A DNA stretch of 64,000 nucleotides from Ancylonema sp. (taxonomy: Eukaryota). Below, in pieces: positions 30,101-52,694 of this stretch (within the stretch, counting starts at the first letter, position 1; every line of letters begins with the position of its first letter). A program made the position numbers and the translations under genes. The stretch is from the NCBI GenBank assembly GCA_050230475.1, contig JBFLGF010000200.1:1-64000 (forward strand), in the 5' to 3' direction. The notes under the pieces are model-generated. The model was not told the DNA's origin. It ran no database searches and saw nothing but the letters and a program-made list of their open reading frames with translations.

Positions 30101-30875
30101 CAAATTGAAGGCTTCCTCGGAAGGGGTAATAAACGAGTTTGCGAGCAGCGCCGCATTGACAGCTAGCGCCCACGGCCCCCTCTCCAAGACCATCACCCAT
30201 AGCTGCTTTTCGGGGGACGCCTGCAAGGGCGTGCAGATGAAGAGGAAATGATGATAGATAGAGTTATATAGAGTTGTGCCAATTCTCCAATCCAATTCGT
30301 GGAAAGAGAGTACAGAAAAGGGGGAGCATGGGCGCCAGAGTAACAGGCGAGCAGGCTGATTTGACGACATCTTCTAACAATTTCTCAGCTTCACCTTATG
30401 AAGCTGTTCCCAGAAAAGAAGCTGCTTGCTGACAAGGTGGACACTGTTGAGGAGCTTCTGTGCCGAGCTTTGGATAGCACTGAGGGCCTCATTGCACACC
30501 CTTGCAATCGCCCTGCATATGCATTCCATGCCAAATGAAGTCTGTGAATGGATTCTTGGTTCGCATTCTTTGGTAAATACAAACAAAATTCCTACATGTG
30601 TCAGTTAGAGGGGATAGAGTCTGATGGATTCGTAGTTCGAATGGCAGATCATTGCCAGGCGATGCAATCGAAGCAATTTTGTAATTAGTATCATATCTGT
30701 CGAATGCTCGCAGGGATGCAAAATTGTCATTTTACCTGGAATCCGTAGTAAATGTATCACTACCGACGAGTTGCAGCAGCTCTACTCGCAAAGAGTCTCT
30801 GAGAATCGGGACGGTGACGATGGCGGCCTGTGCCCTTCTATCCGCGAAAAATGTCGGAAGAAAATTGAAGATCAT
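27143..30875 (-). CDS. DGS1: DGS1/NCA2 copy 2, partial (3' exons lost at the N join at 27142)
   Basis: Identical to copy 1 exons over the duplicated span. Confidence 0.75.
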
Positions 30876-31331
30876 CGTCGTGCAAGAAACAGTTACAGAG
30901 TGCAGGCACCTCCAGCTTAATCGAGTTTCCCGTGCAGCAGTGCAGAGGCACCTTGAATACCCTCTCTCGATGGGGTCATTAATATGAGTGCTGACAACAC
31001 GCTAAGAGAGGACGAACAGTGGGTTGTCATATTCCGCACATCTCACTAAAATTAAATATATATTCAGCTCGTAAGTAGCTAGCCTCACACAAATATGAAT
31101 GGCAGGTGCAGATCACTGCCCGCAGATTGAGAAGCCAGATAATACATGAGTCCCTGGTATATGATACGGGCAGGGAACTCGCGAACTGCCCCTGCCGTGT
31201 CCGACACCAGCTGGATATGATATCGAAGCGCGCTTAGCGTAGACGCCTCGCTGATGAGTATCGGTCAGGAGGCAGAGGAAGGAAGGGGGTATAAAAAAAG
31301 AGGGGTTCAAATTCGTTTCAAACTCTTTTGT
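27143..31331 (+). repeat. Second copy of ~16581-20769 (5' part of DGS1 plus upstream region)
   Basis: ORF track identical at constant offset 10562; identity ends at 31331. Confidence 0.95.
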
Positions 31332-31966: not shown

Positions 31967-33373
31967 TTAATCCCCTCCACCTCCTCCATCGTGTGAGGTG
32001 GGCAGCTTGCGCTTCCTGGACACTTTTACCTGTGTTAACAGAGGGAGACAAAGAGGCCAGAATGATGAGCAAGGGCAGCCTTCTGCTGTGCACAATGGGT
32101 CATGTAATATATTACCTTCACCCCGATTGCCACATGGTGCAGGTCGTACGTAACATCCTTTTATAGAGTTCGCCAAGTGTTTGTCCATCTCCACCAACGT
32201 CTTCGTCTTCACCCCGTATCCTTTCTGGCATTTCAGCAAAGAGTGACCAAATGTCCGCAACTCTCTGTGCTGGCCCTCTTCCCACACTCCATAATCGAAA
32301 TGCTGGCTGAAGTAGTGATCTCACACATGGTCGATCCTGGCGAATACCGCATGATTGCAGTTCTTGCTATGGTTGAGCTCCTCTCCCTCTCTCGGTGGTT
32401 CCGGGACGGGACACCACCATCCTCCGTTTTGGCCGACCGATGCCGGCTTATCACGAAACGCTTCGTAAAGTTCTGCAATCCGACCATGAAAACACATGTG
32501 CATACTAAAGAGGTTACTTCACATGTACTCAGTACGCAACATCACATATCACATCACATGTACGCGGATAGAGATAAGGATAGGCAGCAATACACATGCG
32601 TATGTTGATAGCATGCAGCCGCGGTTTACCCTTGCGATCGTCTGGTCGTTGGCCTTCCACTTGAAAGGGATAATGGTCTCGTCTCACAACGTACGGTTTT
32701 CCGTCCTTGGTTAGCGACGGCGATCCTCTCGCCTTCCCCCCTCCTTCACGGGCAGCTACAAGGGAGCTGTTTAGGAGGGGGGCAAGTGTCGTTGCGGGAG
32801 CAGGACGGAGGTTCCGGGTCGGGAGATATCACCTGTCGGGATACGTTCCACCACTTCTTCCGCAGCAGCCCTGCACTCAGCCACCAATGTCGCGTTCACG
32901 TTTTTGATGTCATATATAGACGCCTCCAACTTCTGTCTTTTGGCGGCCTCCACCTTGATGCTCTCCTGCAATGTCCTAATGGTGGCGGATTGCGTCTGGT
33001 ACACCTCAAGTGCCGTCTTCATTTCGGCGGCGTTCGTCTTGATGACCTCCTGTAATGTCCTAATGGAGGCGGAGTTCGTCTTGATGACCTCCTGTAATGT
33101 CCTAATGGTGGTGGAGTGCGTCCGGTTCACCTCCTTTACCGCCATGATTTCGCCGGACTGCGTCGTCGCGTCTTTTTGCACGTGGTCCAGTAGAACACAG
33201 AGTCTGTTCAGATCCTCCTCGAACTTCTTTCTCTTGATCAAGGGATCCTGAGTAGGATATGAAGACAGTCCAGGCCTCCGTTTCGGGAAGACTCGGGTAA
33301 TAATAACTATCTTGTCGCGGCAATGGAGATCGGCGTCGTGGTGAATTGATGTGAGGTGCGTCCTGGTAGCCAA
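31967..33373 (-). pseudogene. Coiled-coil repeat plus C2H2-like zinc-finger gene, degenerate
   Basis: ORF 32771-33373 has repeats (IRTLQEVIKTN x2, IRTLQESIK). Downstream exon reads WWCPVP..NCNHAVFARIDHV*DHYFSQH with a stop at 32321-32323. Confidence 0.5.
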
Positions 33374-33480
33374 ATATTCTTCCTGATAGCGTGGGCGGGG
33401 TGGTTGAAGTCGGCTCCTTTCGATATCCGCGGGTCACCCTACGTATAGTACAGGCCGATACCATGACGGCCGATTTTTTT

Positions 33481-33735
33481 TTTACCTTTGCCTTTTCCTC
33501 CGCAGCGGCGGGCGGGAGTTAGAGTTTCGGCCGATAGATCAAAACCGAAAATCATTTTACCTTTGCCTTTTCCTCCGCAGCGGCGGGCAGGAGTCAGAGT
33601 TTCGGCCGATAGATCAAAACCGAAAATCATTTTACCTTTGCCTTTTCCTCCGCAGCGGCGGGCGGGAGTCAGAGTTTCGGCCGATAGATCAAAACCGAAA
33701 ATCATTTTTCATTTTTCCTTTTCCGCCGCAGCGGC
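33481..33735. repeat. Three tandem 75-bp units (plus partial) between divergent ORFs
   Basis: Unit TTTACCTTTGCCTTTTCCTCCGCAGCGGCGGGC...CCGAAAATCAT starts at 33481, 33556, 33631. Confidence 0.95.
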
Positions 33736-33887
33736 GTATTAAGAATGTCTCTTTTCGTGGCTGTTCTCTGGCTGTAACCATGCGGTGACACGTGGAAATC
33801 GGGAGGATGCGACTACATCCACATGTGACATCACTATCTGACGAGGTAGCACGGTCAATTCACGGAAACCCCCCGACAACCGTAGAA

Positions 33888-35487
33888 ATGGAGGACCCCG
33901 TGACGTTGCTCGCAGAAGGCCTCCAGCTTTATGCGGAATTGACAGACGAGGATATCGATTACATCGAATTTCAACTCGGACAAGGATGGAATCCTGACAT
34001 GGCAGGTCTGCCCCTCGTCCCGGGTCGAGACGCAGAACCCGCCGACGTCTCGATCGTCGAGGGACAGCAGTGGACAGATACGGAGACAAACGCGACGGAA
34101 GAGGCTGTCGCAGAAGGCAGTGGTCGGGGATCTGGGTCGACCGGAGGCGCCGTGGACGCTTGGATACTACAGCAGAGGGTGGAAGTGGACCGGTTCATGG
34201 AGTGGATCAAGAGAGAGGCGATTCGGTCGGGTGTCGCTCTCGCATCTTTCTCCGACTTCCGTTAGGTGAGACGGAGTGGGCGTAGGAGCTCAAAAGAGGA
34301 GCTCAGGCATCATGGATCCTTGTCCTGCCGTTCACAACCGTGATGTTGCTATCGCAATGACCTCTTCAGCACCTTCTCGGGGACACCGAGGCGGTGGACG
34401 CGCAATGCTCGTCTATCCTGGGGATGGCCGGGGTCGACAGTGTGCAGGAGGTGCGAATTGGGGTCTACCCCTTTTTCGACCACGCAACCTGGAAGTTTGT
34501 CCAGGTGGATTTCTAGACCGAGGCCGTGATCCTGTGGGGATGGGAGGACGTGAACCACGTGCGGAATGAAATTGTGAGTTGAGCCTTGGACACTTCGTAC
34601 ACTCAAGGCCCCTGACTCTTCTTTCCCCCCTCGCAGGTATCCTTTTTGGAAAACGCGTCTCACCTCGGTGACACCGCAGGTCGTGTCTCCAGTACCCCGA
34701 TCTTCAACTTTTCCCGTGCCCCCTTGTCTGGAGACACAGGGGACCAGGGATTTAGCTGGATGCTCACGATATGTTGAATCTGAGCCCACGGGCCGATGGA
34801 GTTCGCAGTAAGAGTCCTGCTCCACGTCACCTAACCCCCCTAGGAGAAAAACACACTCATCTGACACACTTATCCGATCTACAGCCAGAAGAATTGGGGA
34901 GCATTGCGGAGTCCGTCGGGACGCGGGTAACGGAGGACAGGGAGAGTCAATTCCTGGCCGCCATCGATTCTTCGTGCACTGACAAGGTGGATCTTCCACC
35001 CATGCCAGGTACCAACACCTATTCTGACACAATCCTTGATGGTACGGACAGAACGTAAACGACGCAATCCGTGCAATGCGATCTACAATGTTCGGTCAAG
35101 TGCAATACCAGGGAGCTGCCTACTATACTGTCAGCTCCTACCTGTACACAATGGTGAGTGGCTGGCGCTACAGCATCATTATTTTTTCCACAGGTGGCAG
35201 GGTTTGGTACCGCAGATGCGTTGGTGCTGTGGAGTTCGGTCCGGGAAGACATCAGAGCAGCAGGATGTAGAGTGGTATAACCCCTTACTGGTACGCACTG
35301 CATCTCTCAAAATCAGTGACTACTGGTTGTGCACACAGGTGTGGATCCCCATGAACGATGAAGGTCATTGGAGACTCCTCCGCATCAACCTGGATGCGGG
35401 AATTGTGATGACCTACGACCCTATGTGGCCTACAAACAGACTTGAAGAGGAGCCACCTAATTTCGCCTTCCTAAAGAACGTACTGGC
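33888..35487 (+). pseudogene. Ulp1/C48 (SUMO protease)-like gene, degenerate, interrupted by a copia element
   Basis: VWIPMNDEGHWRLLRINLDAGIVMTYDPM matches the C48 His/Asp region. An upstream degenerate segment GVYPFFDHATWKFVQVDF*TEAVILW looks similar. Several stops and frameshifts. Confidence 0.65.
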
Positions 35488-38444
35488 TATAGGAATAGTA
35501 GTCATTTGGCTAAGTTCCTAGTCCGGATGTTCTTGAACATGTAGTCCGGTTGAAACTCTGGATAGGAGTTATTAGATACGGGGATGATACGGGGATTAAT
35601 AAGCCCGACATAATTTGGTCGAGATATTTGGGTCGATCGGTCAATCCAGCCATTAGCTGGATTGAGTACGTATTTGTCATGCATATCGGACATGTGTCAG
35701 TTAAATGCTGGTCATGTGAGTTGCGGCCGCGAGTATCTTAGTCCGTCGAAGCACCTATTGGTTGGCTATCGCTGATTGGTGCTTACATATACGTGTTAAT
35801 TTGCATGTGCATTTAGATTCGCATTGTATCATAAAGTAGACGTGGGCGCGTAGCGAGTAGTGTGGCTCGCTATTGTGTTTGTGCGAAACATTGCTCAAGG
35901 TCTGACTTTCAGACCTTGGAGCGGTAATTGATCGAACTTGCAACTCATCTCACACCGAATCTGAAAATGCGTTGTTGTGAATGAGGAGTGTATGGGCACT
36001 TGTTCGAGATAGGATTCACGCATACATAAGAGTTCCATATCAAGATGGACTCTTACTCTTCAAATGGTAAATGGTATCAGAGCGATGATTTTCAAGGTCC
36101 AGAACTATAGGGTCTGGTGTTCTCAAGGAGAATAACTATAGGGTCTGGTCTACGGTCGTAGAACAGAGCCTTAGGGAGAAGAAGTTATGGGGGCACGTGA
36201 TGGGTACGGCAGTCAGGCCTCCTCCCCCGCGCGCCAGGGCACCGGCGGTTCGGACAATCGCCGCATCCCAAGGAGTACTTGCCGTGGCCGGTGCCGCGGA
36301 AGTTACGCATGCAATAGCGGAAAGGGAAACGAAACTCTTTGAAGACTTTGATGCATCCATGGCCAGGGCTAACAGTGTGCTTCTGTCGACGCTTGAGCCT
36401 AAGGACATCATGGCGACTGTGATGCTGCCCTCTCCGGCTGAGAAATGGGCTCAGTTGGCCAGGATTATGCCGCGGTTTCCATGGCTAAATGCTAGGTCAA
36501 GGTTCAATGATTTCAGGATGCATGATGGGGACTCCGTGGTGACTACTCAGCTTCGCTTCGACGAAATGGAAAATGAATGTGCCATACAAGGGGTTTCAAG
36601 CACGGAGGATAACAAAACGATGATCCTTTTTACTCAACCCTCCGAAGCGTGGAGAGATTTCATGGATGCATATGCTACAAGAACACCCTTACCGGCGGTT
36701 GCGGAGATTTTCCGAGCTATGAAAGCGCTAGAGGAGCGGAGGAACATGCGGAACGATCGTGAGTATGCCGAGGCAAATTATGTGGGACGATCTGGTGGAG
36801 GGGGCAGCAATGGCGGCTACAAGCCGAAGGTGACTGGCCGCTCGGAGATGAGTGGAGGGAGTGAATCAAGAATTTCTACTGTTGCGGGAAGACGGGGCAC
36901 TTTGCTCGAGAGTGCCCCATGCGGGAGAAGACATGCAACGTCTGCAGTCTGAAAGGACACCTTGCCAACATGTGCCGGTCAAAGAGTGGGGAGGAGGATG
37001 TCCAAGAGGATGCAGCCGATAAAGCGGAGAAGCCGACGGAGACTTCGGGGAGGCCAAAGTCGCAGACTTATGTGGAAAGGCCGAAGTTGCTGAATCCTAA
37101 GGCGACCAAGTTTCAGTTGGCAAAGCAAAATGTTGAGGGGATGGTGGTGGCCGAGTCGCCCTGCCAGATGACCTTTCCTTTTCGTCAAGTGAAGAGGCCG
37201 AGTGGCTCGCCGATTTAGGTGCATGCCGCCATGTTTGTACAAACTTACAAACTTGAGCCTCATGTGATGAGCTGAGTGAGCCTGTTAAACTTACTCACCT
37301 TGCCGGTGAGATCGATGTACATCTAGAGGGGACAGTGAAATTGGAATGTGCGGATGACCTCGGTTCAGAGGTGTTGTTCTTGTATGAAACCCTCTATGTA
37401 CCTCAGGCTACTACAAATCTGTTTAGTGTTCAAAATATGAGAAAGGCGAAATGCAGGATTGTGCAGCAAAAGAGGCTTGGAGTGCAGTGGATGAAGAACA
37501 AAAGGGGAAAGGTGAGAGGCAGTTTGGTTGAGGACTGTAATGGTAGAGCAACTGTGAATTGTAGGACCATGCTTCCCCCTCTTATAGACCTGATTAGGAT
37601 TCTGAAACTAGCATCACATGATGGTGGAAACATTGGAGTGGTTTCGGGAGTCTTGCCGGGATTTATGCCAACTCCGGGGTTTGATGGGGTGTAGTCCCAA
37701 CCGAGGGGGCTGATCATAACTTTGAAGTTATGATTGCTGAGGTAGGGAATTGTGGAAGAGTGTGGTGCGCTGTCCCAACCATTTTCAGAAGGAGAGGGAG
37801 AGCAACTCCCAGTCGAGGGGGCTGAAGATTCGCCAACCTTGGGGAAGACGTTCCTCCCGATCGATTGTGATGAGACATTGCCAGCCTGGAATGAAGTAGT
37901 GGCAACAAGGTCGGAGCCGGTGCTCTTTCCATCTAAAGTGGAGGTGGTTACGCAGTCCCCGGCCGCGGGGAGAGGAGCTGGATATTCACCCTCGGGGGGG
38001 GAACTCCCAACCATTGTGATGGCGTTGCCAGCCGCACAAGTGGGAGTGCACATCGATTGGGGGAGTAGTGAGACTTCCACCGATAGTGATGACATGCTGA
38101 GTGTTGAGAAGGTCGATGAGATCTCATTGGACACTTCTGATTCTATCAGGAAGATTACAAGTGGCATTGCTGACGTCACTAAAAGAGGCATTGTTCCATT
38201 GGGAGGGAAGGCAAATTTTGTGATGCTCGAGATCGGCTTCGGTCTGAAGCGACCTCCTACTGTTTGGGATGATGTGCATGGAATGAAGAGAGTTAGTCAC
38301 CTTAGTGGGGCTGGCTAATTGATCATGAATAGTGGCTAGGGATTAGCCAATGAGAGGGGGATTGTAGGATAGTAGTCATTTGGCTAAGTTCAGTCCGGAT
38401 GTTCTTGAACATGTAGTCCGGTTGAAACTCTGGATAGGAGTTAT
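35488..38444 (+). mobile_element. Ty1/copia element A, non-autonomous (gag plus protease only); 5' LTR 35488-36062, 3' LTR starts at 38363 and is interrupted
   Basis: PBS TGGTATCAGAGC at 36072-36083; gag ORF 36197-36952; zinc knuckles CGKTGHFAREC and CNVCSLKGHLANMC; protease EWLADLGACRHVC...LYVPQATTNLFSV; PPT GAGAGGGGGAT before 38363; TSD CTGGC. Confidence 0.9.
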
Positions 38445-40845
38445 TGTGGACGCCATTGTGACGTCCACTCAACTCAACTCTTTACACTTGAGTAATACCC
38501 AACTCAAACTCAGAACTCAACTCTTACTCAGATTGCGCTCAACACAAACGCAGACTCAGACTCATTCACATACACATTAAACTCATTCACATATGGCGCA
38601 GCTCATAGACAAAGCTTCTTTCATATACAAGCAAGTAAAAAAACAACACCGGAGAAGAATTGTACCTATACCCATTGTATGAAAATCTCAATCAACTAGC
38701 CAAAAGTAAGACCTTTGTCATCAAGTTGACATCTCATGACTACTGACCCTAGATTAACCGAACGAGTAAATCTAATTCGTCAACTATTGATTTATTGCGC
38801 GCCGAGCCAATAACGCGACTACTGCATTTCACTGACACACGTCACTTTTCTACCGATACAACTAATCATTCTAAACAAGAGCGAAAAACAACACGTTCAT
38901 TATTCTAAATATTCCCAAAGACAAAACGTCACTTCAAGTCATAGACGCGAATAACCAAAAACACGAAAAACAAACCAAAAACCAAAAGCGTCAAAGAACC
39001 GCGCACTATTACGGCAACAACTTTGGTCGAACTAATTAACACATCATAATATACAAATATGTTGCAGAAAATACTCCACATTCCCCCTCCCTGCAACATC
39101 CATCGACACATTTTACCCACTTTTCTATCATCCCCACCAATCCCTTGCAGACTTTTAGAACTCCTACTCCAACATTTTTGTAACATGTCTGCTGCATTCA
39201 ATCCCGGTCGACCTTCCCTAATTCAATAAGACTTTTCAACCCTGTCCCTGAGTGAATGATACTTGATTCTGATTGCTTAGACCTCTGATGAAAGACTGGA
39301 TTCATCGCCAATTTAAGTGGAGACTCATTATCACCTAGCAACAGAACTTTTTCTGTGCCAATTCTCATTTCCCCCTGGAGCTGTTGCAAATAGATGGCCT
39401 CATTCCCTGCCTCACTCAGTCCCACATACTCTGACTCACAACTGCTATGAGTAACAACTATCATCATCGATGACCTCCAGATCACTGCTGCACTAGCACT
39501 CATAAACACGTAACCATTTCTGCCCCTGGATGTCTCTCTGTCTCCAGCATGTCCAGCATCAGAATACCCCCACACCCCCACCTGCGCACCTCTCTTATAA
39601 AGCAACCCCTCTCCAGCTGTACCATTCACGTACCTCAGTACACGTTTTACCCCCTCCCAATGTGCTATTCCAGGGTTCTGACTAAACTTGCTAAGTTCAG
39701 ACACTGATGCTGACAAGTCTGGTCGAGTACAAGTTGCGAGATCCATCAAACTCCCAATTGCAGACCTGTAAGGCACATTCACCATTTCACTCCTCTCCTC
39801 ATCGGTGACTGGTTGCTGAGAGATGTCCAGATGAGTTCCCAGCTCCATTGGTGTCGACACTGTCTTGCTCCCCTCCATGCGCGCTGAAACGTTTGACGAC
39901 ATCTCCTGCATACTTCTCTTGCACCAGAAGCACATCGCCATTCGCCCGCCTTCGAATCTCTATACCCACCAAGAATCTAGCCTCCCCAAGATCTTTCATT
40001 TTGAATTCTGTATTCGCTGACGTGTTGTCTGCGTTCAGCACTACGGCTATCTCAACCGGCTCAAGTTCTGTTCCGTTCACTATCTCAAGACTGTCTTCTG
40101 CGTCCAAGACAGCGGTGAGATTTGTGCGCCATGGCCCATACGTAATTGAATCTTTCAGCACTGTTTTCTTTGTGTACTCTGATGATCCAGAGCCTGATGC
40201 TCTGATGGACGCCATTGTGACGTCCACTCAACTCAACTCTTTACACTTGAGTAATACCCAACTCAAACTCAGAACTCAACTCTGACTCAGATTGCGCTCC
40301 ACACAAACTCAGACTCAGACTCATTCACATACTCATTGAACTCATTCACATATGGCGCAGCTCATAGACAAAGCTTCTTTCATATAAAAGCAAGTAAAAA
40401 ACAACACCGGAGATGAATTGTACCTATACCCATTGTATGAGAAAAAAATCTCAATCAACTAGCCAAAAGTAAGACCTTGTGTCATCAAGTTGACAATATC
40501 TCCAAATGACTAAGACCCTAGATTAAAACGAGATCTAATTCGTCAATATTGATTGAGTTATTGCGCGCCGAGCCAACACTACTGCACATTTCACTGACAC
40601 ACGTCATAACTTTTCTACCGATACAACTAATATTCTAAACAAGAGCGAAAAACAACACGTGTCGTTATTCTAAATATACCCAAAGACAAAACGTCACTTC
40701 AAGTCATAGACGCGAATAACCAAAAACACGAAAAACAAACCAAAAACCAAAAGCGTCAAAGAACCGCGCACTATTACGGCGGCAACTTTGGTCGAACTAA
40801 TTAACACATCATCATATACAAATATGTTGCAGAAAATACTCCACA
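38445..40845 (-). mobile_element. Ty1/copia element B nested in the 3' LTR of A; LTRs 38445-39080 and ~40206-40845; internally deleted (gag N-terminus fused to RT/RNaseH)
   Basis: LTR termini TGTGGA...TCCACA; PPT GGGAGGGGGAA; RT FKMKDLGEARFLVGIEI and PYRSAIGSLMDLATCTRPDL; RNaseH GYSDAGHAGD..SSCESEY..GDNES; PBS remnant TCAGAGC. Confidence 0.92.
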
Positions 40846-41606
40846 GTCTACCCCCACTCCACCCACCCACCGAGACGCGCGTACAATTTTGTTCTGGGAA
40901 TGCGAGGACTCCGACGACCAGTGCACCATTGTCGTCCTCCTCCGAGGAGGTAAGCAAATGTCACCAGCCTGGCAGCGGTGTATTCCCTGGCAGCGGTGTA
41001 GTCCTCGCATGTTTCGAGAAATGTTGTCATTGTCGCGCGGGGCTGGGCTCCACAAATACCCAAATGGAAAAATATAGAACTATGTGTGTGGAAAACGAAT
41101 GGCTGCGCTGGAATGGTGGAATGCAGTGGACGTACAATGTAGGGTGTACGGAGGGGAGGTGTGGTGGGGGGGGGGGGGGGGGGATGGGGTAGGAATTTTG
41201 CAGGCCCGCCTTCCGTTTGCCCAGGTGGGATTAGTGGCTGCAGTTGGGATTTTTCGGCGGGCTTGTCTCCGATCCCACCCATGCACCCAAAAAACACCCC
41301 CACCACCTTACTCCCCACTATGTTGTCTACCAGAGGTGTGGCCAATATTTTGGCGACCTCCTTGCAGCGTCCTTGCTTGAATGTAGTCATGTATTTCTGT
41401 AACCCAGAACAAATCACTTTAGTTACTCCTCACCGGGGCTTACGTCACATAAGTTACGAGGTATACACCTCGCCCAAACTCAATTTCTGATTCCTGAGGA
41501 TGCAATCCAGGGTCCTCAGGATCCACGCACCCGTCTGTTTGATAGACGTGATTATATTGGGGTATAATCCATATATGTGGCACCACTCCATGGCTTCTGG
41601 GGCCAG
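40846..41606 (-). pseudogene. Inverted continuation of the Ulp1-like gene
   Basis: Starts with TSD CTGGC and continues the 35036-35487 frame: (KNV)LAPEAMEWCHIYGLYPNIITSIKQTGAWILRTLDCILRNQKLSLGE. Confidence 0.7.
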
Positions 41607-42107
41607 TGAAGAGTCCATCTTGATATGGAACTCTTATGCGTGAATCCTATCTCGAACAAGTGCCCATACACTCCTCATTCACAACGCATTCAGATCGATG
41701 TGAGATGAGTTGCTAGTTCGATCAATTACCGCTCCAAGGTCTGAAAGTCAGACCTTGAACAATGTTTCGCACAAACACACTAGCGAGCCACACTACTCGC
41801 TACGTGCCCACGTCTACTTTATGATACAATGCGAATCTAAATGCACATGCAAATTAACAACGTATATGTAAGCACCAATCAAGCACACAGCGATAGCCAA
41901 CCAATAGGTGCTTCGACGGACTAAGAGACTCGCGGCCGCAACTCACATGACCAATACGAATCCGGCATTTAACTGACACATGTCCGATATGCATGACAAA
42001 TACGTACTCAATCCAGCTAACGGCTGACGGCTGGATTGACCGATCGACCCAAATAACTCGACCAAATTATGTCGGGCTTATTAATCCCCGTATCCGTATC
42101 TAATAAC
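41607..42107 (-). repeat. Remainder of the copia A 3' LTR, inverted
   Basis: Reverse complement matches 35568-36062 and ends ...ACTCTTCA followed by TSD CTGGC. Confidence 0.9.
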
Positions 42108-42112
42108 TTAAC

Positions 42113-42744
42113 TGGAGTATTTTCTGCAACATATTTGTATATTAATGATGTGTTAATCAGTTCGGCCAAAGTTGCCGTAATAGTGCGCGGTTCTTTGACG
42201 CTTTTGGTTTTGGGTTTGTTTTTCGTGTTTTTGGTTATTCGTGTCTATGACTTGAAGTGACGTTTTGTCTTTGGGAATATTTAGAATAATGACACGTGTT
42301 GTTTTTCGCACTTGTTTAGAATGATTAGTTGTATCGGTATAAAAGTTATGAGTGTGTCAGTGAAATGTGTCAGTAGTCGCGTTATTGGCGGCGCGCAATA
42401 ACTCAATCAAGTTGACGAAAGTTTCTCGGTTAATCTAGGGTCGATTTGGAGATAATGTCAACTTGATGACAAGACAAGGTCTTACTTTTGGCTAGTTGAT
42501 TGAGATTTTCTCATACAATGGGTATAGGTACAATTCTTCTCCGGTGTTGTTTTCACTTGCTTTTATATGAAAGAAGCTTTGTCTATGAGCTGCGCCATAT
42601 GTGAATGAGTTTAATGAGTATGTGAATGAGTCTGAGTCTGAGTTTGAGTTGAGCGCAATCTGAGTAAGAGTTGAGTTTGAGTTTGGTTGGGTATTACTCA
42701 AGTGTAAAGAGTTGAGTTGAGTGGACGTCACAATGGCGTCCACA
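42113..42744 (+). repeat. Third LTR-B copy, in opposite orientation to the other two
   Basis: Reverse complement of 38445-39078. Confidence 0.92.
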
Positions 42745-44359
42745 GTCAGCATTAGTCGACTCGTGACCCTCGGACTTGTCCCTATGTGTTGACCTATCCG
42801 ACTTCTTTTTTGGGTGGCTGCAGTGCTCACCAGAAGAGTGTCAAGCGAATGATGACTTGCACTCTCGAGCGATCGAGGAAAATAAGTTTGCGGTTGGTTG
42901 GATACATGTGAGAATTTTGGTCTTATGGTGGCAATGGTTCCTCTTTTTCTTTTGACTTCTTTGGATTCTTTGCTCTTTTCTGGAAAAGTACTTCACCTCT
43001 TGTGTATGCATCCTACATCCAACCCACCTCCCATCCTCCCATGTTGTTGTTGTGTCATCCCCTTCAGACACACCCCGACTTTGAGCATTTCATGTCCAAC
43101 ATCGACATACACACGTCGGTGAAAATACAGGTGTGTAACGGGTCCGCATTAGGCAGTAAAGTCGCCTTGTAGTGATTGGTAAATTTGATATGATATTGGG
43201 AAGCGTGGATTTACAGAGAGACACGGCAGAGTCTGTGGCCATCGTCTTGGCGCCCAAAAAGGGAGATACCCCGAAAGGGTGAGCAACAATGCCCCTCCCT
43301 ACCTCGTCCCCGGTATTCTTGATTATCCAATGTAGCAGAATGGAAATAGAAGCCATGCTGACAATAAACCTTGCACTGGCGGTGGGAGGAGGGGAGGGAG
43401 AGGCTAGGAGATCAAGTGTGGCGAGTAGACTCCGGACACAGGGATAGAGGTTCAAAATGGGGACGCCATAGGGGAAGGTGGTAGTGGGGAGCTGTCCCCC
43501 AAGAAGAAGAGGAGTAGAAAATAATGGTGTGGACACATGTGTGTGTGGTGTCCATGTGGCAATTTAGAGTGCTACCATCTGCGTAAGCATGATTTATAGT
43601 GAACAGTGCACTACTTACATAGAGAGGAGGATGCACTAACCATCATAATTGTGACGATGATGGTGAACATTTGAATGACTCTAATCGAAGATTGATCATA
43701 GTGTCTGGGTCAGATGTATCAAGAATCTTATTGAAGTTTGACTTTCTTGTTCTCGGTCCAAAGCCAAAATGAAGATGTGTATTGATGCTTACTATACCGA
43801 ATTGTTGCTTACTCTCCACGGTATGCAAACAATTATATATGGGATGAGATTATTTTGGTCACAGAATTATGAAACCCACTTGCGCAGTGTCTGAATATAA
43901 AAAACATCACGCATCCTTCGCGAGATTTGAGATATCGCGCTATAAACGAGAAGACAAATGACATACCGCGATCTTCAAGAGTAATTCAGATATCGCGCGT
44001 AGTGGTGGTCAACACTAGATGAGGAAGTATTATTTTCATAACATGAAGAAGCTTATTATGTAATACTTAATGCGAAAGAGAAAGACTGAAAAAATATAGA
44101 TAGAACGCAATTTACATTTCACACCTCGAAAATTACTATGAAAGTGCAAAAACACCCATGGACATGAAGTTATGATCAAGGTCTCGACATTGCTAAATCA
44201 AGTCTACTGTCTGGTGGACGTCGATACTGCCCAAGGGTTGGGACTGCTTTTGGGATCGGGCTACTTAACCATACAGACTTCCTAACACACGGACCTTCCA
44301 CACCATACCATGAACCGCATAAAAAATATTTCCTCTACCTCCTCCTCCTCCGCCGAGTT

Positions 44360-47134
44360 CTACACGTCCTCTACCAACACCCCCTCTACCCCCAAGTTCT
44401 CTTCCTCCCACTCTTCCAGCCCGACATCCTCCACATCCTCGCCTTCACCACCATCTCCGATCCCCCTGGGACTCCCACGGTGACCCATTTTGGGCAGGCA
44501 CTCGAGCATCAACGACTCGAGCTGCTGCATCGGACCGGCTCTATCACTTTCAGGGTAGGATGACTCGTCGAATAAGATGGGCCATTCATCCAAAACCGAT
44601 ACAGCGTAAGGAAGAGACGTGGCCTCGGTGGCATCATCCAGTGCGATCTGTTCCGCATAATCCAGGGGTCGCCCGACTTGTAAGGCCCACACCCGTTTGC
44701 AATCCCCGACTGCCATATGGTCCACCCTGTCCATCGAGGTGTACCACTTGGCCATCTCCAACTTCCTCACAAAGCGGCGTCTTGACAAGTCGATGCGTTT
44801 GTAAACACTGCAAATAAGGGTGGGATAAGAGGACACACTGTACGTAAGATCACCCATACAAAGTCAAGGAGAAGGTGACTCGAGTCGTATTGGCTAGAGT
44901 GTATGTTCCCACCTTGTCCACACTCTCCTGTACGACTCCAGATCCGCCTCCTCTCTCGATCCCACACCGACAACGCAGTCACCACTTGCGTCTGGTCCAG
45001 TCAAGTGGATGGGCATTGAGTTCATATCGGACCACACACACAAAAGACACATGCAAAACCAATTGTTGGGCTGTGAGGCGAAGTTATGTGTAGAGGATTA
45101 AGCAAGATATGCAATAACCATACCAGATGACTCTCGTTCTCGATGGTACTCTTCGAGTATGTTCACAGTCTTGCGTAAGATGTCGGGGTTGAATCTCATG
45201 ACTAGAAAGCCCTGTTCACGTGCTTCTCTATTGGCATCGCTATTTCTGGCCAATCGCGACAGGGATTTCACACGGACTCGAGTGTGGGTCTTGTTCACCA
45301 CCACCAATTGAGCAAAAAATGCATCGGTTGCAGCCTTCGAATGACCACCCCCCCTTCCCTCTTTCTCCGGGTCTTCCTCACGCAGACAAGGTGGCACCAA
45401 ATCTGCCTCTCCCGCGTTCTCAATCAGGCGTTCCCTCCACCCTGCTCTCCTGCACTCGTCATCCACACTTGCCCTCACTCTACGTGCGGCCACCACTGCT
45501 GGGTCTGCTTCCACCACGACTGCAATATCCGGGGGAAGCTTGGGGAGGTGAGGAATGGCCCTTTCTTGCGCCTTCTCCGCCATCTCCTCGTTCGACCCAG
45601 CCCGACGCGCACTAAAGGGAACATATTGAGGAAGGCGGGCTATCCGGGCCACAAGATTCAGGGTTGCCACCAAAAACACCCTCCTCCTCTCCAAATAAAA
45701 CCGCGTTGTTGTCGAAAAGGAGGTTCCCGAGGGGACCAATGTACGACTCCATCGTGACACGTGTTAGATTAGTGTGTCCGAGAGCACGCGCTAAGGACTG
45801 ATAGTGGTAGGCTTTCGGTACCCCGCCACTCTAGGACGTGAGGTTGACAAGGGCTTGGCCGGCCGCGCCTGACCTAAAGCTGCGCATGCCAAATTTGATG
45901 ACCGCATCCTCCGACATCCCGAGTTGATGAAGTAGGTCTCGCAACTGACGAGACTTCACATCCGGGGGGAACCTACAATAGGGTAGATGGGTAGTGTGTG
46001 AGATGTAGGTGTGCAGGTAGGAGGAGGAGCAAGAAGGGGGGGGGGGGAAGAGGGCTAATTAGGGCAATGAAGAAGAGACTCCACAGAAAAATGTATGCAC
46101 CTCCTCCCACCCAACTCACCGTCTTCTGGGGTGAGAGTACTCCTCCCTCCACAGCTGGAAAAACAAAATAATCAAGGCACTCCGGCTTCACCACAAACCT
46201 TTGCTTTCGACACGCTTCTGGCAATTCCAGGTCTAGTACCCCCATCTTCACCGCCAAGGCAACGAGAGTGCGAACCAAGCACAATTCCCGGACCTCGAAC
46301 TCCTTCAATTTTACAGATCTCCCCTTTCCCCCCAACGCAGCCGCGAAACCCACCGACTTACTATCTGGAACAACCACCACCACCTCCACATGTCGATTTT
46401 CCTCCTCATCAACATGGGCCTGGAAAGTAACATGTCGCCACTTCAGCGCTTGATACGAGTTGGGGCGGCATAGGCAGGTAAAGCCGGTCAACATCACCGC
46501 ACGAAGTACCAGGTCCGATACACTCATGGGGTCCAACAATTGAACCATTGTACGAACAGCCATTGCGGGAAGAGGGGTTTGTCGATGACACCTGTCAGCC
46601 CCAAGGGCCCTGAAACAATCAAAGACATTTGAAGGGAGGTTGATCCATTGAGCTCCAGGTTTACAAGAGCGCTTTGTGAGGGTGTTAAGGATCTCACGGT
46701 GCAATACTTTTCATCACCAGTGATGACTCCCGTCTGAGAACCGACACGTCACCACTGCCAACAAACTTTCCCTCCTCCACCATCGACCATTCCTTCTCCT
46801 CAACGAATGATAACAGGTTGTAAGACAAAACGCGCATATATGTGAAGCTATGACCACGAGGCCCCATAGCGAATCCAAGTGGATCAGTGTGAGGGTCCTT
46901 CCCCACAGAGGGTATGGCCAACCACCATAAGAAGTACTTTAACGTCTTTGGTGTGACGGGGAAGTCTTGGTCACTCCACAGGCCATCATCCATCCCATAC
47001 GGACCTAAAAAGGACACACGATCTTCCTGTCTGGCAACCCTCATCATGTGATTAAAGACTATCCACTTCCGAGTTGCACGGCCCTGCAGATCGGCCTTCT
47101 TCAACACGGCATTATCCATCACTTTTTTTTTCTC
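44360..47134 (-). pseudogene. Tyrosine recombinase YR-2 (Crypton/DUF3435-like) with long C-terminal extension; spliced, with stops and frameshifts
   Basis: LRAVMLTGFTCLCRPNSYQALKWRHV (R at ~46466), VPDSKS (K), CLVRTLVALA, intron ~46119-45973, then LRDLLHQLGMSEDAVIKFGMRSFRSGAA (R), RALGHTN (H), TMESY (Y at 45741-45743). Confidence 0.85.
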
Positions 47135-47187
47135 CTAACAAAAAGAAATAGGTCGACGCGCGGAATTACACAACCATTATACACAAT

Positions 47188-50100
47188 TTATGCCACAGGA
47201 CATTTTTGTGCACACACAAAATTGCAGGTCAACCAACATGCACCCATCTTGCCATGTTCTAGCATACATGTAACATGAAATGCGGTTGCACCCCCACCCT
47301 GGCCCACCTCATCATCCATAGAGGTTAACAAGGACGTGAGTTCCTCTTGCAACAATTCCTTGAGCGAATTGACAAAGTCGCTCGACTTGGTTCTTCTCTT
47401 GACGACCTCCAATTCTGAAGCACACTTCTTGAAATACGCTTGCATCCGCACCCAATCACCGTGTGCCTCTAAATCAACAAGGGGGGACTCCGATGACCTG
47501 TACCGCTGCAACTGTGCGATGGCGAACGACAGTTCCCTATGCACAACAGCGTGTGATCGATGTTCGCCCATTTGAACATCGGACATCGTGAGAGTAGGTA
47601 TCGATGGAGGCACATCTGGGAATAAAAACAAGGACAACATTGAGAACATGAGCAAATAGAGGGAGGAAAGAGGAGGAAGGGATAAATACGGTTAGCGCTA
47701 ACAATTAAACAGTTGTGTTCGATGGGAAACAGGAGTGGAAAGGAAGTCACCTATGTGCTTTGCCACAGTTGGAACAACCTCGACACCTTGGCGCCATGAC
47801 ATTGCCCACACCCCCTTCCCCTCTCTCCCGTACACCATCTGATAACCAGCACTCGAAGGAGCAACTCTTCCGCCTCCCACCCTCAGTATCCTCGACAATC
47901 AGATCCAGGTCCACACCCTCCACACACATATCATCGACTTGAGCATCTGCTGGGGGGTGGGTGAAGATTGGGTGATGGTCCAGTAGAACTGAAGACTCCG
48001 CACCACGGGAGCAGTACTGATATCGTCACCGCACCCCGCCAGCAACTTTATTTGTGGAACATGGGTGTTCTGACCCACGAACCATCTCGCATATTTCCGG
48101 GCCACGGTCTGTCTCGCATTGCACAGGCTGCAAGGCACAGGTTCTCAACCTATTGGACATCAGAAACAATCACACTTCCTTCACATGAGAGGGAAGAGAA
48201 CATACTTATGCACAGCCTTAGAGCGGGCTGCCTTCGTGTGAGGGACTCCCCCTTCATTGTTTTTGTAATTATTTGCTGGCCCTTCTAGCTCCTGGATAGT
48301 CTTCACCCACTTGTGGTATGCGGGGAGAACTTTAGAACCCTCTATATCAGCACGTCCCTCCTGTTCTTGCTCCCATGGTAGAATAATAGTGAAGAAGTGC
48401 TCAGGTGTTTCATCTGCATATAGCAACGCAATCAAATGAACAGTTAAAATTGGCAAAAAAGACAGGTTGCATTCAACCCGAACCCACCCAAGTATTACCT
48501 GAGAGTTTACTTATAACTTCATCCAACGCTTTTCTCAAGAAAGAATCCTTTTGATTCTGGGTGTCCCGTGCACACAACTCCTCCTCCGCAGTAGCCGACT
48601 TTTACGGATAACAGCGTACCGTCAGGTCTAAAGACTCCGCAGCACGGATTCTCTGCTCTGATCTGTCGACAAGAACCTTTCTGTTCTGTTCCTTAAAAAC
48701 CTGCCCAATCTGGACACGAAGCACACTGGGCACATTTCCACGGCCCCGTTTGAGGCCCGGTTTGGTAGGAGGCCCCGGAAGGAACAATCCTCCGGACTGG
48801 GCAGGAGTCAATACACCGGGTCCTCCCAGCACACCTTCAGACAGGATCTTCTCACCACCAAGCGTGACCAACCCCTCTACCCCAGTAACCTGGTTGGACA
48901 CATCCCCCCCTTGCCCCACACCATCCGGGGTGACTTCCATGCATATCTTGTGGGGTCGACACCCACTAACTCCAACCTTCTCTTCAATGCGCAGGAGAGA
49001 TAATAAATATTCAGCTACAAGCGAAAGAAAGGGGAGGAAAATGAACAAGCTTGGTTACCATTAAGTTCCCATTAAAATGTTTTTCTTCAAAATAAAAAAC
49101 CGGCTGATCGGAGAAGAGAACTTCGTCACAATCACGAGGGCATAAAAGCATCTCCAAGCAGCCGACCTTAACACTGCAGTCTTTTTCGAATACATCTTGA
49201 CGACGACCGATTTGAAGCACTTGCTCAACTAAGCAAATCTGTGAAGAGAAGATGGGAATTAAAAAGGTGGGAAATAAATGCCAACTTCTACCACATTGAA
49301 TTCAGCTTAAAGAACTCAAGCAGAAAAAACATAGCGGCATTGCTTGATACACAACCACATCTCTTGTCGCATACAAAATCAGACCTGCGGGTGTGACCGA
49401 CGCCCAATTTGACAGAGGTGGGTGGAACCCATGTTGGAGGAGTTTTTGAAAGGACGGATGGCCACATTAATAGCAGTCCCCCCATCCAACATAGTGACGT
49501 CTTTCCAAGTAATGTTGATGATTTCTTTTGAACGAGGACCACACACGAATGAAAGTATGAAGAGAATGGAATCTCGGAGATCAACATCGATACAAAGGTC
49601 GAGTGAATTTAATAATGGAATTAAAACATCCAGCAAGAGTGACTTCTGTGTCTTGAAGGGGCGAAGCACCCCAGATGCTCTATTCCAATGCCTCTTGGAT
49701 ATCTCCATCACCTCACGCAAGCGTCCGATACGGGCTTCGGGTGGGCCTTCGCCCCCAACCACATCGGGACGAACAATGGCCCATGCAAGGAGGGCCCATA
49801 AACACTGTGAATAATGTGGAATGGGGGTGGAGAGGGAGGGGGTCGGGGGGGGGGGGTTATTTCATACAATTGTCTCCACTAATGTGACAGAAGGGACACA
49901 GTTCTCACCTTGATAGACGTATTGTATGACAAGCCAAGTTGCTCCCGTAGGTGTCCCAAGTATATGAAGATGACGTCAGGATCGATGGCAGTCAACGATT
50001 TCCCGGACATCTCCAAAAATTGACAATAGGAGAAAAATGGCGCTAGTCCATCACGCAAAAAAATAACTGTGCAGGGGATAAACAATGTCATTAATTTATA

Positions 50101-50606
50101 TCCGGTACCATACACATATTTGGGGCAAACTACTCTGCTCACCCTTATTCCGGGTTTTAATGACGTCAGAAGCGCCAATGGTAGCATCTAAAAATCGACG
50201 CAGATCCGGCAGATTCTCTGTCGCCCCCCCCTGTCTACCAACATCAGTTAACAACTTCACTGCATCGCCCTTCCAGTCCTTGGCCCTGCTAAAACGACGG
50301 CCACTTCGTTTCGAGCACGTCGGGTGTGGCTAGCAACAATAAGGAATAGAAAAAAGAAGGAAATTAAAAAAAAGTAACAAAATACGCAGGCTCGCATAAA
50401 ATCCTTTCAATAACCGAACAAGGATCAAAACAATTTCAGGGGCGAAAACCAACCAAAACAAGCACAGCCTCCGAATGGGGGGGCAAGTTCTCATCTCCAT
50501 CGACTGGCAAGCCAGAAGAGGCGGTACACAAGTTATGACCGACATTCGTCGGCAGCTCCCCCAACGGGTTGCGCAACTGAAGGGGGCGGGGGGGGCCAGT
50601 AGTCAT
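47188..50606 (-). pseudogene. Tyrosine recombinase YR-1 with core-binding domain and C-terminal extension; spliced, degenerate (start tentative)
   Basis: Integrase N-domain-like FFSYCQFLEMSGKSLTAIDPDVIFIYLGHLREQLGLSYNT; box I LRDSILFILSFVCGPRSKEIINITWKDV (R at ~49533); RPFKN; ICLVEQVL; RRLELVGVDPTRYAWKSPR. Catalytic H/W and Y not recognisable after a frameshift. Confidence 0.78.
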
Positions 50607-50952
50607 GATCTCACATCTGCACACAATCCATCCAGATCCAGGGTTGGGATACAACGAGTAAAACAAGTACAGTGCGAGTTGAACACGTACCCAACGTCTA
50701 CAACATCGGGAATACCGGTTGGTATTGTGGACTCGGTGGTTGCAGGCATAGAATTCGGCAACAAAACAATACGACCTTCAAAAAAAAGGAGAAAACGTGT
50801 CGCAACAATCGGATGAGAAACAATATGTCCTACAGGATTCCCAGATTCGTGTGCTATCAACCACAATAATGTAACTAGAAAAAGGAACGGTCAATAACAA
50901 CACATCATTTTTTGGTGCTTGAGTTACAGCAGCCAAGAGGGTATACGGTTCA

Positions 50953-52017
50953 TAATCGCCTAAATCCTCTGGTACACAGGCTGGTACTTGTGGTCCATCT
51001 GCAAATATATTTATCGTATAAATACAATGAGAAAAATCTAGCAAGGCAAAACGAGATTCATGGATCTTTTTGGTAAGTCGGACCATTCCTGAACACGGTA
51101 GGAGGGGTAACATACCATGATTCTCCGGTGACACAGGTGAAGGAGGGACTGTGAGTGCCTTCACCGATTGGATAGGTCGATTCGGTAATGAGTGAGGCCA
51201 ATTCAGGGAGTGAAGACCGATAATAAGGCGGAGGAAATTAATACCATCGTAAGTGGAACAAAACAAATCGTATTTCTTCCGTTTTATGGAATCACGTTAC
51301 AAATCCGAGGCCGGATAATGTAGGTATTGATTACTAGTATAATGGACCAGCACAATACAAACAGTTTATAACTCGTTGGAAGACAGACAACGAGGCATTC
51401 GAGCTCCAAATAATTTAGTAGTTTGCTGTAATACATACCTGCCTCTCATTTTATTGAATCTCGTTAGATGTCCGAGGCCGGATTATATACGTACTGGTTA
51501 CTTGCATACTAAACCAGTGTCATACCATGGTGTGTCCCGGACAGAGAATGTCGCAAACCGGCGATAGGCCACCACAAGTCCGACAAGCTACGGAATGCAG
51601 ATTTCTAAAAATATGGGAATCAAAGCTGTAACGGGAACGCAGATCGAAGGAGGTATACACCAGGAAAGGGTGGTCATGCTAGCCTAAGAGGACACTAACA
51701 GGGAGAATCCTGGCATTAATTCTTCCGAGGAATCTGCATGTTTTGACAAATTTGCGAGCAATGAATCTTGGCGACGACTGACACTATTTGGTGCGCTGGA
51801 CAAGGAATACACGGCACGTAGGACCATACAACGAATACATTATAACACGGTAAATGTGATATGTACACGATACAACGTCTGGACACATGGACGTCGACGT
51901 CAACAGACGTACCCGTACATTGGCAGGTCGTCAAATAAAATAATAATACATCATTCTGAACCGGTTAATTTAAAACTTGGAAATAAACCGACAATATTCC
52001 GACAATATTCCCATATA
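50953..52017. repeat. ~1.05 kb non-coding repeat forming the right end of the insertion
   Basis: Collinear similarity to 62205-63251; similarity stops at CCCATAT, about 8 nt before the junction. Confidence 0.85.
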
Positions 52018-52694
52018 TGGAGTGGATGTTGCACCTCTCTGCAGCTGCAACGTGTTACACGAAGTTGGCAACTGTGGCAGGATTGGCCCGTTCCCGCTGG
52101 ATACCCATTGAACAGAAAGAAAATTGACTGCCCGCAACTTTTGAGCCAAAAGTCACCCTTGAGATGGGTCCCACCGGAAGTATTGAACAGCCATTATGGT
52201 AGCTGGACATGCAGCTGTTTAATCAGGCTGGAAGAGCTGGATACTGAGGATGGAAATGGGGATAAGGGCTGTGGCTTTGGCGAACCCGACAAGATTTGCA
52301 TATCAAATCCGTGGCTTCGGATAACCGTGCAAAACATGATGGACAAAACCTGGGGCGCAGAATAAATCGGACTCCTAAACTCTAAACCTCCGACAGAAAA
52401 CACCTCCAAGTGCTCCAAATCTGTCCGAAATCCTGCGCGTTCCGCAATCGTGTCCGCAGCTGCAGAAGGGTAGCTAGTGCAGATTTCAGAGAGCAGTCAG
52501 GCAACTAACTTTAGAGTCAACCTTGCCACTTGTCTCATGGTCAGTTTACACACGGTCGCCCGAGGATCAAGTCGCGTGCCTGTTAGCGCCAGCAACGGAT
52601 AGCAAACGAAAGACAGAGCACTCTGTTGTCCTTGAGGCAGCTGAAGAGACAGCGATTGCGAGCATCTTGTCGCTGTCGTGACTTCGGAGAGACT

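What the first reader, a model, noticed from the sequence alone, without database searches (positions are those of the whole stretch)
45440..46960. YR-2 motif layout resembles DUF3435 (Starship captain) recombinases
Seen: N-terminal TPKTLKYFLWWLA; first catalytic Arg in an RP context (CRPNS); CLVRTLVALA; MRSFRSGA in place of canonical HxLR; LGH-x9-Y; then DNNAVLFG and, after a frameshift, PKLPPDIAVVVEADPAVVAAR. Inference from recalled family patterns: this order of motifs, especially the post-catalytic tail, looks more like DUF3435/Crypton than DIRS or phage integrases. By-eye assignment only.
Basis: inference. Interest (0 to 1): 0.7.

Follow-up and report, generated by a model that had tools for sequence, protein, structure and literature searches.

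The report
Algal transposon with two tyrosine recombinases
This is a broken copy of a repeated DNA element, likely from a glacier alga, whose Cre-like recombinase gene sits directly behind a second, very different recombinase gene; it likely moves by cutting out and rejoining like Crypton transposons, and it does not match the fungal Starship family profile.

Summary
All eight motifs are present, but the spacing is LGH-x10-Y, not x9. They belong to a five-exon gene of about 763 aa on the minus strand (47119-44360). A relative's N-half is predicted to fold like Cre (Z 9.8). This copy is a pseudogene. Its stop codon and two extra bases are absent from contigs of all 4 runs laid, and 11 of 12 relatives cover exon 3 in one open frame. 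The whole 43.0-51.5 kb stretch is multi-copy. It holds a second, highly divergent recombinase gene (YR-1) head-to-tail upstream, and no reverse transcriptase or viral gene. DUF3435 membership fails: no PF11917 match in 41 scanned rows. The Atlas ranks DUF3435 16th of 30 for exon 2 and shows no such row for exon 3; oomycete/diatom and Ndc10-type clusters rank higher. The box II motif is RxxR, not the Starship H/YxxR. Verdict: an undescribed Crypton-like DNA transposon family carrying two recombinases. Its ends, the linkage of the two genes in other copies, and its tree position remain open.

The parts
46698..47119 (-). YR-2 exon 1 (140 codons): N-terminal, predicted core-binding region, holds TPKTLKYFLWWLA
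   Evidence: matches P0033 residues 1-107 from an equivalent start, E=4e-11
46610..46697 (-). YR-2 intron 1 (88 nt, GT-AG, phase 2; inferred)
   Evidence: conservation among relatives starts at the acceptor; no indel listed in other copies
46120..46609 (-). YR-2 exon 2: first half of the catalytic domain, with the catalytic Arg (RPNS), the Lys (PDSK) and the CxVxxL motif
   Evidence: R and K invariant in 18 of 18 rows; the model of relative P0033 matches Cre with Z 9.8, rmsd 4.2, 128 aligned
45973..46119 (-). YR-2 intron 2 (147 nt, GT-AG, phase 0; inferred)
   Evidence: relatives' similarity stops at KT|V
45124..45971 (-). YR-2 exon 3: RSFR box, LGH-x10-Y, conserved acidic-Gly stretch, predicted helical tail. 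Carries copy-specific lesions (extra base 45971/2, TAG 45833-45831, extra base 45655-7)
44913..44997 (-). YR-2 exon 4 (inferred; its acceptor may be damaged in this copy)
   Evidence: P0026 and P0028 align through to 44924
44360..44807 (-). YR-2 exon 5 with acidic C-terminus and stop (inferred)
   Evidence: open frame and AG acceptor; not checked against relatives
47250..50330 (-). YR-1: second, divergent tyrosine-recombinase gene, head-to-tail upstream. Inferred exons 50330-50143, 50042-49909, 49804-49385, 49238-49101, 49014-48942, then tail exons to about 47260. The HxxR..H..Y part is missing in this copy, probably deleted at 48941
   Evidence: PHROG integrase E=1.6e-4; PF00589 E=0.019; open exons with fitting phases; loose ends at 48941 in 3 contigs each of X1 and X6
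42746..43526 (+). 3' part of a third, convergent, degenerate gene ending in a basic PKKKRSRK stretch; cut by a copia LTR at about 42745
   Evidence: covered by the same multi-copy contigs from 43000 on; no Pfam match
50952..52020 (.). Probable 5' terminal region of the element, with two internal 69-77-nt repeats; ends at the palindrome CCATATATGG (52011-52020), a candidate end
   Evidence: 87% identical to 62205-63246, similarity stops at 52000; host duplication starts at 52026; an X7 contig bridges 50753-51261; end not proven
43000..51500 (.). Stretch shown to be multi-copy over its whole length
   Evidence: 30 of 30 bins covered in 4 of 4 runs; 1580 pieces in X1, mostly 85-99% identical; up to 11-12 contigs at one site

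Best explanation
The stretch is a decayed copy of a multi-copy element that carries two divergent, intron-containing tyrosine-recombinase genes head-to-tail, and it likely moves as a Crypton-like DNA transposon. Shown: YR-2's fold class (through a relative), the family's conserved R, K, R, H and Y, the copy-specific lesions, the multi-copy state, and no Pfam match to RT, DDE or viral genes. Inferred from the Crypton model (PMC3212892, PMC9977147): the recombinase cuts with its tyrosine at a short core sequence at each end, excises the element as a circle and recombines that core into a matching host site. Inferred and untested: YR-1 and YR-2 are ancient paralogues that would act together, each on a different end or half-site as XerC and XerD do, or one for excision and one for integration. 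Arg replaces the box II His in YR-2, a position reported as not essential in Cre (PMC10104507 passage). This copy cannot supply either enzyme.
For: Fold: Cre fills the top Foldseek rows (best E 2.5e-3, prob 0.98). VIA ranks 1-26 are recombinases, type IB topoisomerases or their derivatives: Cre Z 9.8, the Crypton-derived QRICH1 Z 8.2. Catalytic residues: R and K in 18 of 18 rows; H and Y in 13 of 13; second Arg in 10 of the 11 rows that cover it. Family under selection: relatives at 40-90% identity, 11 of 12 covering exon 3 in one open frame. Lesions are absent from contigs of 4 of 4 runs. Multi-copy across both genes and their spacer, with no pile of unrelated loose ends between them among the rows shown. 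Nearest Atlas clusters are oomycete/diatom hypotheticals and NDC10_II. YR-1 exons align colinearly with P0033 over 129 columns (4 of 2000 shuffles reach the score) and with the YR-2 profile (1 of 1000). Both genes have a phase-0 intron 24 residues after the same VK/MK motif (YR-1, YR-2 and 4 of 5 relatives checked).
Against: No terminal direct repeat or empty site was found, and TATGG/CCATA occurs 22 times in 9.5 kb. No single contig spans both coding regions, so one-element status rests on tiled short contigs. No Pfam Crypton family (NDC10_II, GCR1_C, DUF3504) is matched either. Foldseek gave no match at E<=0.001 and the models are partial (pLDDT 62 and 54). The YR-1/YR-2 similarity is weak and was picked after inspection: exon d alone was reached by 55, 170 and 739 of 2000 shuffles, and the comparison with P0040 by 1280 of 2000. 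YR-1's catalytic Tyr was not seen. Contig depth is not a copy number.
Confidence: 0.62

Rival explanations
1. YR-2 is a remote Starship-captain (DUF3435) relative outside fungi, and the element is a small or eroded Starship-like unit.
For: About 763 aa with a long predicted helical tail, similar in size to HhpA (aligned to residue 671 in PMC10104507). The box II His is substituted, and the distant relative P0040 has YxxR, as Starship clades 1 and 3 do (PMC11162782 section 20). One DUF3435 cluster appears at 0.93, rank 16 of 30. The by-eye likeness of the CxVxxLxAL and tail motifs to captains is recalled and was not tested.
Against: No PF11917 match in 18, 13 and 10 scanned rows or in window frames. 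No DUF3435 row for exon 3. RxxR in 11 of 11 rows. No DUF3723, FRE, patatin or NLR match. YR-2 is not the first gene. The host looks green-lineage: plant-type primer site at 36072 and glacier/ice holders.
Confidence: 0.13
2. Two unrelated YR elements, each a one-gene Crypton, lie side by side or nested here, and the tandem is an accident of this locus.
For: The two proteins are very divergent (profile i-E 6 on the unspliced window). YR-1 matches phage-integrase profiles and YR-2 does not. The tails share no similarity. No contig spans both coding regions.
Against: The spacer is only about 130-180 bp. Multi-contig cover runs through it in 4 of 4 runs, and the loose ends shown there resemble the window sequence. 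The genes share a likely intron position.
Confidence: 0.15
3. The genes are remnants of a DIRS/Ngaro retrotransposon or of an endogenous DNA virus (Polinton-like or giant virus).
For: YR-1 has weak integrase matches. The best BFVD rows for the YR-2 relative include integrases (best E 1.5e-3).
Against: No RT, RNase H, gag, capsid or polymerase family in six frames of 42.7-52.05 kb. No relatives in viral contigs, phages or prokaryote genomes. Several spliceosomal-type introns. No long terminal inverted or split repeats.
Confidence: 0.06
4. YR-2 is a domesticated or non-catalytic recombinase-fold DNA-binding protein, and YR-1 alone is the mobiliser.
For: The box II His is replaced by Arg throughout the family. 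QRICH1 and Ndc10, both domesticated, are among the fold matches.
Against: R, K, second R, H and Y are conserved across relatives as distant as 40-60% identity. Many divergent copies are present rather than one conserved locus.
Confidence: 0.04

Closest known systems
Crypton DNA transposons, especially CryptonS and CryptonF of oomycetes and diatoms (Kojima & Jurka 2011, PMC3212892; parts 1-2 of 7 read) and CryptonF-1_cRei of Chlamydomonas (PMC9977147; section 7 and passages read)
   Same: YR without RT or DDE enzyme; multi-copy; no long terminal repeats found; C-terminal extension; nearest Atlas clusters are oomycete/diatom and NDC10_II-bearing; a TATGG-containing palindrome lies at the candidate 5' end
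   Different: Two YR genes; no GCR1_C, NDC10_II or DUF3504 Pfam match; RxxR box; unrelated predicted helical tail; terminal direct repeats not shown
Starship captains, DUF3435/PF11917 (PMC9156397, PMC10104507 and PMC13486527: passages; PMC11162782: section 20 and passages)
   Same: Cre-like fold; similar length; long tail after the catalytic Tyr; box II His substituted
   Different: No PF11917 match; RxxR instead of HxxR or YxxR; not the first gene; no auxiliary genes; host apparently not a fungus; about 9-10 kb seen, against tens to hundreds of kb
Cre recombinase (PDB 1kbu, 1pvq)
   Same: Best structural match of the first half of the catalytic domain
   Different: 11-12% identity; eukaryotic introns; C-terminal extension of about 370 aa
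Two-recombinase prokaryotic systems: XerC/XerD (search listing of PMC2673442 and PMC2731167); Tn554 TnpA/TnpB and RIT elements (recalled, no call)
   Same: Two divergent tyrosine recombinases that may act together; adjacent head-to-tail genes in Tn554 and RIT (recalled)
   Different: Eukaryotic and intron-bearing; no sequence match to prokaryote genomes; cooperation not shown

Membership tests
Starship captain (DUF3435) | Match to PF11917 | tested here: not met
   0 of 18, 0 of 13, 0 of 10, plus window segments. Exons were scanned separately, and HMMER's filters drop most hits above E of about 0.1.
Starship captain (DUF3435) | HxxR or YxxR in box II (PMC11162782 section 20) | tested here: not met
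   First position is R in 11 of 11 covering rows; only the distant P0040 has YxxR
Starship captain (DUF3435) | Catalytic R, K, R and Y retained | tested here: met
   R and K 18 of 18; second R 10 of 11; Y 13 of 13
Starship captain (DUF3435) | [quoted passage not shown] | tested here: inconclusive
   YR-2 lies behind YR-1; ends not established
Starship captain (DUF3435) | Auxiliary genes (DUF3723, ferric reductase, patatin, NLR) | tested here: not met
   No match in six frames of 42.7-52.05 kb
Starship captain (DUF3435) | Host is a dikaryotic fungus | tested here: inconclusive
   The plant-type copia primer site at 36072 (assignment from my own knowledge) and the glacier/ice holders point to a green alga. 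Host genes could not be placed.
Starship captain (DUF3435) | Placement in the captain clade; structural match to an HhpA model | not testable with these tools
   No captain sequences or AlphaFold DB on hand
Crypton (broad sense) | Eukaryotic DNA element with a YR and no RT or DDE transposase | tested here: met
Crypton (broad sense) | Multi-copy repeat | tested here: met
   dispersal to distinct sites not shown
Crypton (broad sense) | Short terminal direct repeats, no TIRs | tested here: inconclusive
   No long TIR; one candidate end; the other end is lost in a copia cluster
CryptonF | GCR1_C domain after the YR | tested here: not met
   No Pfam match; the tail is modelled as a helical hairpin
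CryptonA | DUF3504 match and no C-terminal domain | tested here: not met
   No PF12012 match; long tail present
CryptonS | TATGG termini and the CryptonS C-terminal region | tested here: inconclusive
   TATGG at 52016, but 22 such sites in 9.5 kb; Atlas neighbours are unnamed stramenopile clusters; no CryptonS sequences to compare
DIRS/Ngaro retrotransposon | RT, RNase H and gag genes | tested here: not met
DIRS/Ngaro retrotransposon | ITR/ICR or split direct repeats | tested here: inconclusive
   None seen in 42.7-52.1 kb, but one end is missing
Endogenous DNA virus integrase | Capsid, packaging or polymerase neighbours; viral relatives | tested here: not met

The most novel reading that the evidence does not exclude
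A eukaryotic transposon family that moves with a pair of different tyrosine recombinases, a XerC/XerD- or Tn554-like division of labour not found in my searches of the eukaryotic literature. Its YR-2 branch, with an RxxR active site and a captain-like tail, could be the nearest non-fungal relative of Starship captains.
Probability: 0.3. Interest if true: 0.78.

Novelty: new variant of a known kind. Interest (0 to 1): 0.5.

Why it matters
Eukaryotic tyrosine-recombinase transposons are few and their mechanism is barely tested. The Cryptons and Starships in the papers I read carry one recombinase each. A family with two intact, divergent recombinases would offer a natural test of asymmetric end recognition and a possible two-part integration tool. 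It also adds an unclassified YR lineage, matched by no Pfam family, from a probable green alga. That lineage is a useful outgroup for the open question of where Starship captains came from.

Tried and rejected
No whole genome is held for this window, so copies, flanks and empty sites could not be mapped.
Search for longer relatives of exon 2: 0 of 1183 candidates (weak evidence).
Metagenome scan: 1 locus from 90 stretches, L001, a chance antisense match in a bacterial smpB region, dropped.
P0043, a repetitive protein, was dropped from the 14 hits.
PDB sequence searches with both profiles found no recombinase. NCBIfam gave nothing relevant.
The exon-3 model matched only generic coiled coils over residues 149-246 (best Z 7.9). 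Its catalytic part was low-confidence and barely tested.
No RNA holder was listed.
A TAG=Gln code was considered and rejected: other copies read CAG, and a 606-aa host frame has no TAA or TAG.
A frameshift at 46710 was considered and rejected in favour of an intron.
The idea that the C48 peptidase gene at 34.9-35.5 kb is this element's partner, split off by the copia cluster, could be neither supported nor excluded.
Host placement by cluster look-up and PDB search failed.
A PF11917 genome search was not possible.
No complex prediction was run, because the available fragments lack the expected interface.
Literature: 'second tyrosine recombinase' + eukaryot + transposon gave 0 papers. Listings showed no two-YR eukaryotic element and no DUF3435 outside fungi. 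Repbase, most subscription papers and all supplements were not seen and may hold such a family.
Earlier scan notes: nothing by place or sequence; the word hits concern other elements.

Full report
Setting. The window comes from an intron-rich eukaryote. It has a DnaJ-like gene with a C2H2 finger, VPS36, and copia fragments at 35.5-42.7 kb. No genome is held. The DNA of 43.9-50.9 kb is held by 7 of 12 listed runs from 4 studies: coded organism A and glacier or ice metagenomes. A copia primer site TGGTATCAGAGC at 36072 is of the plant type (my own knowledge). The host is therefore probably a green-lineage ice alga; this is inference, and direct placement failed.

Observation. All eight motifs are present in order on the minus strand. 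The gene model is exon 1 47119-46698, exon 2 46609-46120, exon 3 45971-45124, exon 4 about 44997-44913 and exon 5 44807-44360, about 763 aa in all (splice sites inferred). The relative P0033 holds exons 1 and 2 in one frame. Relatives lose similarity at the inferred donors of introns 2 and 3, and P0026 and P0028 align into exon 4. The H-to-Y spacing is 10 in 13 of 13 rows.

State of this copy. Contigs from four runs of four studies were laid on 45050-47250. The TAG at 45833-45831 is read as CAG at full depth in 4 of 4 runs. One base is left out at 45971/45972 and at 45655/45657 in 4 of 4 runs (one shallow contig only in X7 for the latter). The Cys of CRPNS is Phe in all four. Of the 35 best-supported exonic differences, 23 change the residue and 12 do not, as expected for a decaying copy; 385 further rows were not shown. 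So this copy is a pseudogene of a family with open members. All 12 relatives found with exon 3 are stop-free proteins at 40-90% identity, and 11 of them cover it in one frame; P0027 diverges half-way. All relatives come from unnamed ENA or Logan contigs, mostly 1-3 kb. A full HMMER scan of 1.84 billion representatives gave 14 hits: 13 relatives, the most distant being P0040 at 36%, and one repetitive artefact.

What the protein is. The model of P0033 is confident over about residues 141-290. Foldseek's top rows are Cre variants, with QRICH1 at rank 15 and Flp and XerA lower; none reaches E 0.001. VIA gives Cre Z 9.8 (rmsd 4.2, 128 aligned), variola topoisomerase IB 9.3, QRICH1 8.2, XerH 7.9 and Ndc10 6.3. 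This fixes the superfamily but not the subfamily. The catalytic Arg and Lys are invariant in 18 of 18 rows, His and Tyr in 13 of 13, and the box II motif is R-x-x-R (first R 11 of 11, second R 10 of 11). The tail is modelled as a helical hairpin and matches only generic coiled coils.

DUF3435 test. No PF11917 match appeared for 18, 13 and 10 rows or for window frames. The only YR-type Pfam row for YR-2 was PF00589 at E 0.26 in 1 of 18. In the Atlas, exon 2 is nearest to an oomycete hypothetical cluster (0.97), then NDC10_II (0.96), DUF3504 (0.95) and PF00589 (0.94), with a single DUF3435 cluster at rank 16 of 30 (0.93). An exon-3 relative is nearest to unnamed, diatom and oomycete clusters (0.92) and NDC10_II-bearing ones (0.91, family on 16% of members), and no DUF3435 row is shown. 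Starship YRs have HxxR or YxxR (PMC11162782, section 20), sit first in the element, and were found only in Dikarya among the fungal genomes surveyed. The protein therefore resembles these eukaryotic DNA-transposon YRs but is not a DUF3435 member by the tests I could run. The score gaps are small and exons were tested separately, so a remote relationship remains possible.

The element. Contigs cover 30 of 30 bins of 43.0-51.5 kb in all four runs. X1 alone gives 1580 pieces (208 at 99% or more, 327 at 95-99%, 535 at 90-95%, 510 below 90%), with up to 11-12 contigs at one site. Depth is not a copy number, and no piece spans the stretch. About 130-180 bp upstream of YR-2, on the same strand, ends a second multi-exon gene, YR-1. 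It has GPRSKE and PFKN motifs, a PHROG integrase match at E 1.6e-4 and open exons with fitting phases. Its HxxR-H-Y part is absent here, and six contigs of two runs carry other sequence at 48941, which suggests a deletion in this copy. YR-1 aligns colinearly with the YR-2 profile (1 of 1000 shuffles as good) and with P0033 (4 of 2000). The two genes share a phase-0 intron 24 residues after the same motif. Four other pairings were weaker or not significant (55, 170, 739 and 1280 of 2000). A third, convergent gene fragment ends at 43526 and is cut by a copia LTR at about 42745. No RT, RNase H, DDE, capsid or Starship auxiliary family is found in six frames of 42.7-52.05 kb, and no relatives occur in viral contigs, phages or prokaryote genomes. 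The 50952-52000 segment recurs at 62205-63246 (87%). It ends just before a CCATATATGG palindrome next to host-like sequence, a candidate 5' end. TATGG is the CryptonS terminus (PMC3212892), but the motif occurs 22 times in 9.5 kb.

Mechanism. Shown: fold class, conserved catalytic residues, copy-specific decay, multi-copy state, and two YR genes in tandem in this copy. Inferred from the Crypton model: excision as a circle by recombination between short end cores, then integration at a matching target. Inferred and untested: both recombinases act together on unlike ends or split the two directions of the reaction. Confidence is 0.62 for a two-YR Crypton-like transposon, 0.15 for two chance neighbours, 0.13 for a remote Starship relative, 0.06 for a retro or viral remnant, and 0.04 for a non-catalytic YR-2.

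Novelty. Cryptons are known from fungi, stramenopiles, animals and Chlamydomonas. My searches found no eukaryotic element with two YRs (0 papers; listings). Repbase, subscription papers and supplements were not seen. Papers consulted: PMC3212892 (parts 1-2 of 7), PMC9977147 (section 7 and passages), PMC11162782 (section 20 and passages), and passages only of PMC10104507, PMC9156397, PMC13465315, PMC13236599 and PMC13486527. Tn554 and RIT are recalled. Verdict: new variant of a known kind, interest 0.5.

Noticed in passing
window 43919-43939 and 43967-43997: Two imperfect palindromes that share the 10-mer AGATATCGCG, 58 bp apart, in the AT-rich spacer between YR-2 and the convergent gene. They could be protein-binding or recombination-type sites.
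   Followed up: no
window 33790-35500 (+) and 32774-33433 (-): A degenerate gene with a Ulp1/C48 peptidase domain (E=8e-5), cut by a copia LTR at about 35490; a divergent coiled-coil ORF; 75-bp tandem repeats at 33480-33736. Some Cryptons carry C48 genes (PMC3212892), but a link to this element was not shown.
   Followed up: partly
window 35490-42755: Nested copia cluster with two LTR types, three copies of a 640-bp LTR (one inverted) and signs of an inversion between LTRs.
   Followed up: partly
window 24293, 27142, 61358: Single Ns border large near-identical duplications (16582-20769 = 27144-31331 at 100%; 12066-14902 vs 24296-27141 at 98.5%), probably scaffolding or haplotig artefacts.
   Followed up: no
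window 40851-41429 (-): A 193-aa open frame with no Pfam match, trapped between LTRs; possibly a displaced part of the third gene.
   Followed up: partly
P0040 (19-kb ENA contig): The most distant YR-2 relative (36%), with a YxxR box and apparently from another, GC-richer genome. It suggests the family spans more than one host lineage.
   Followed up: partly
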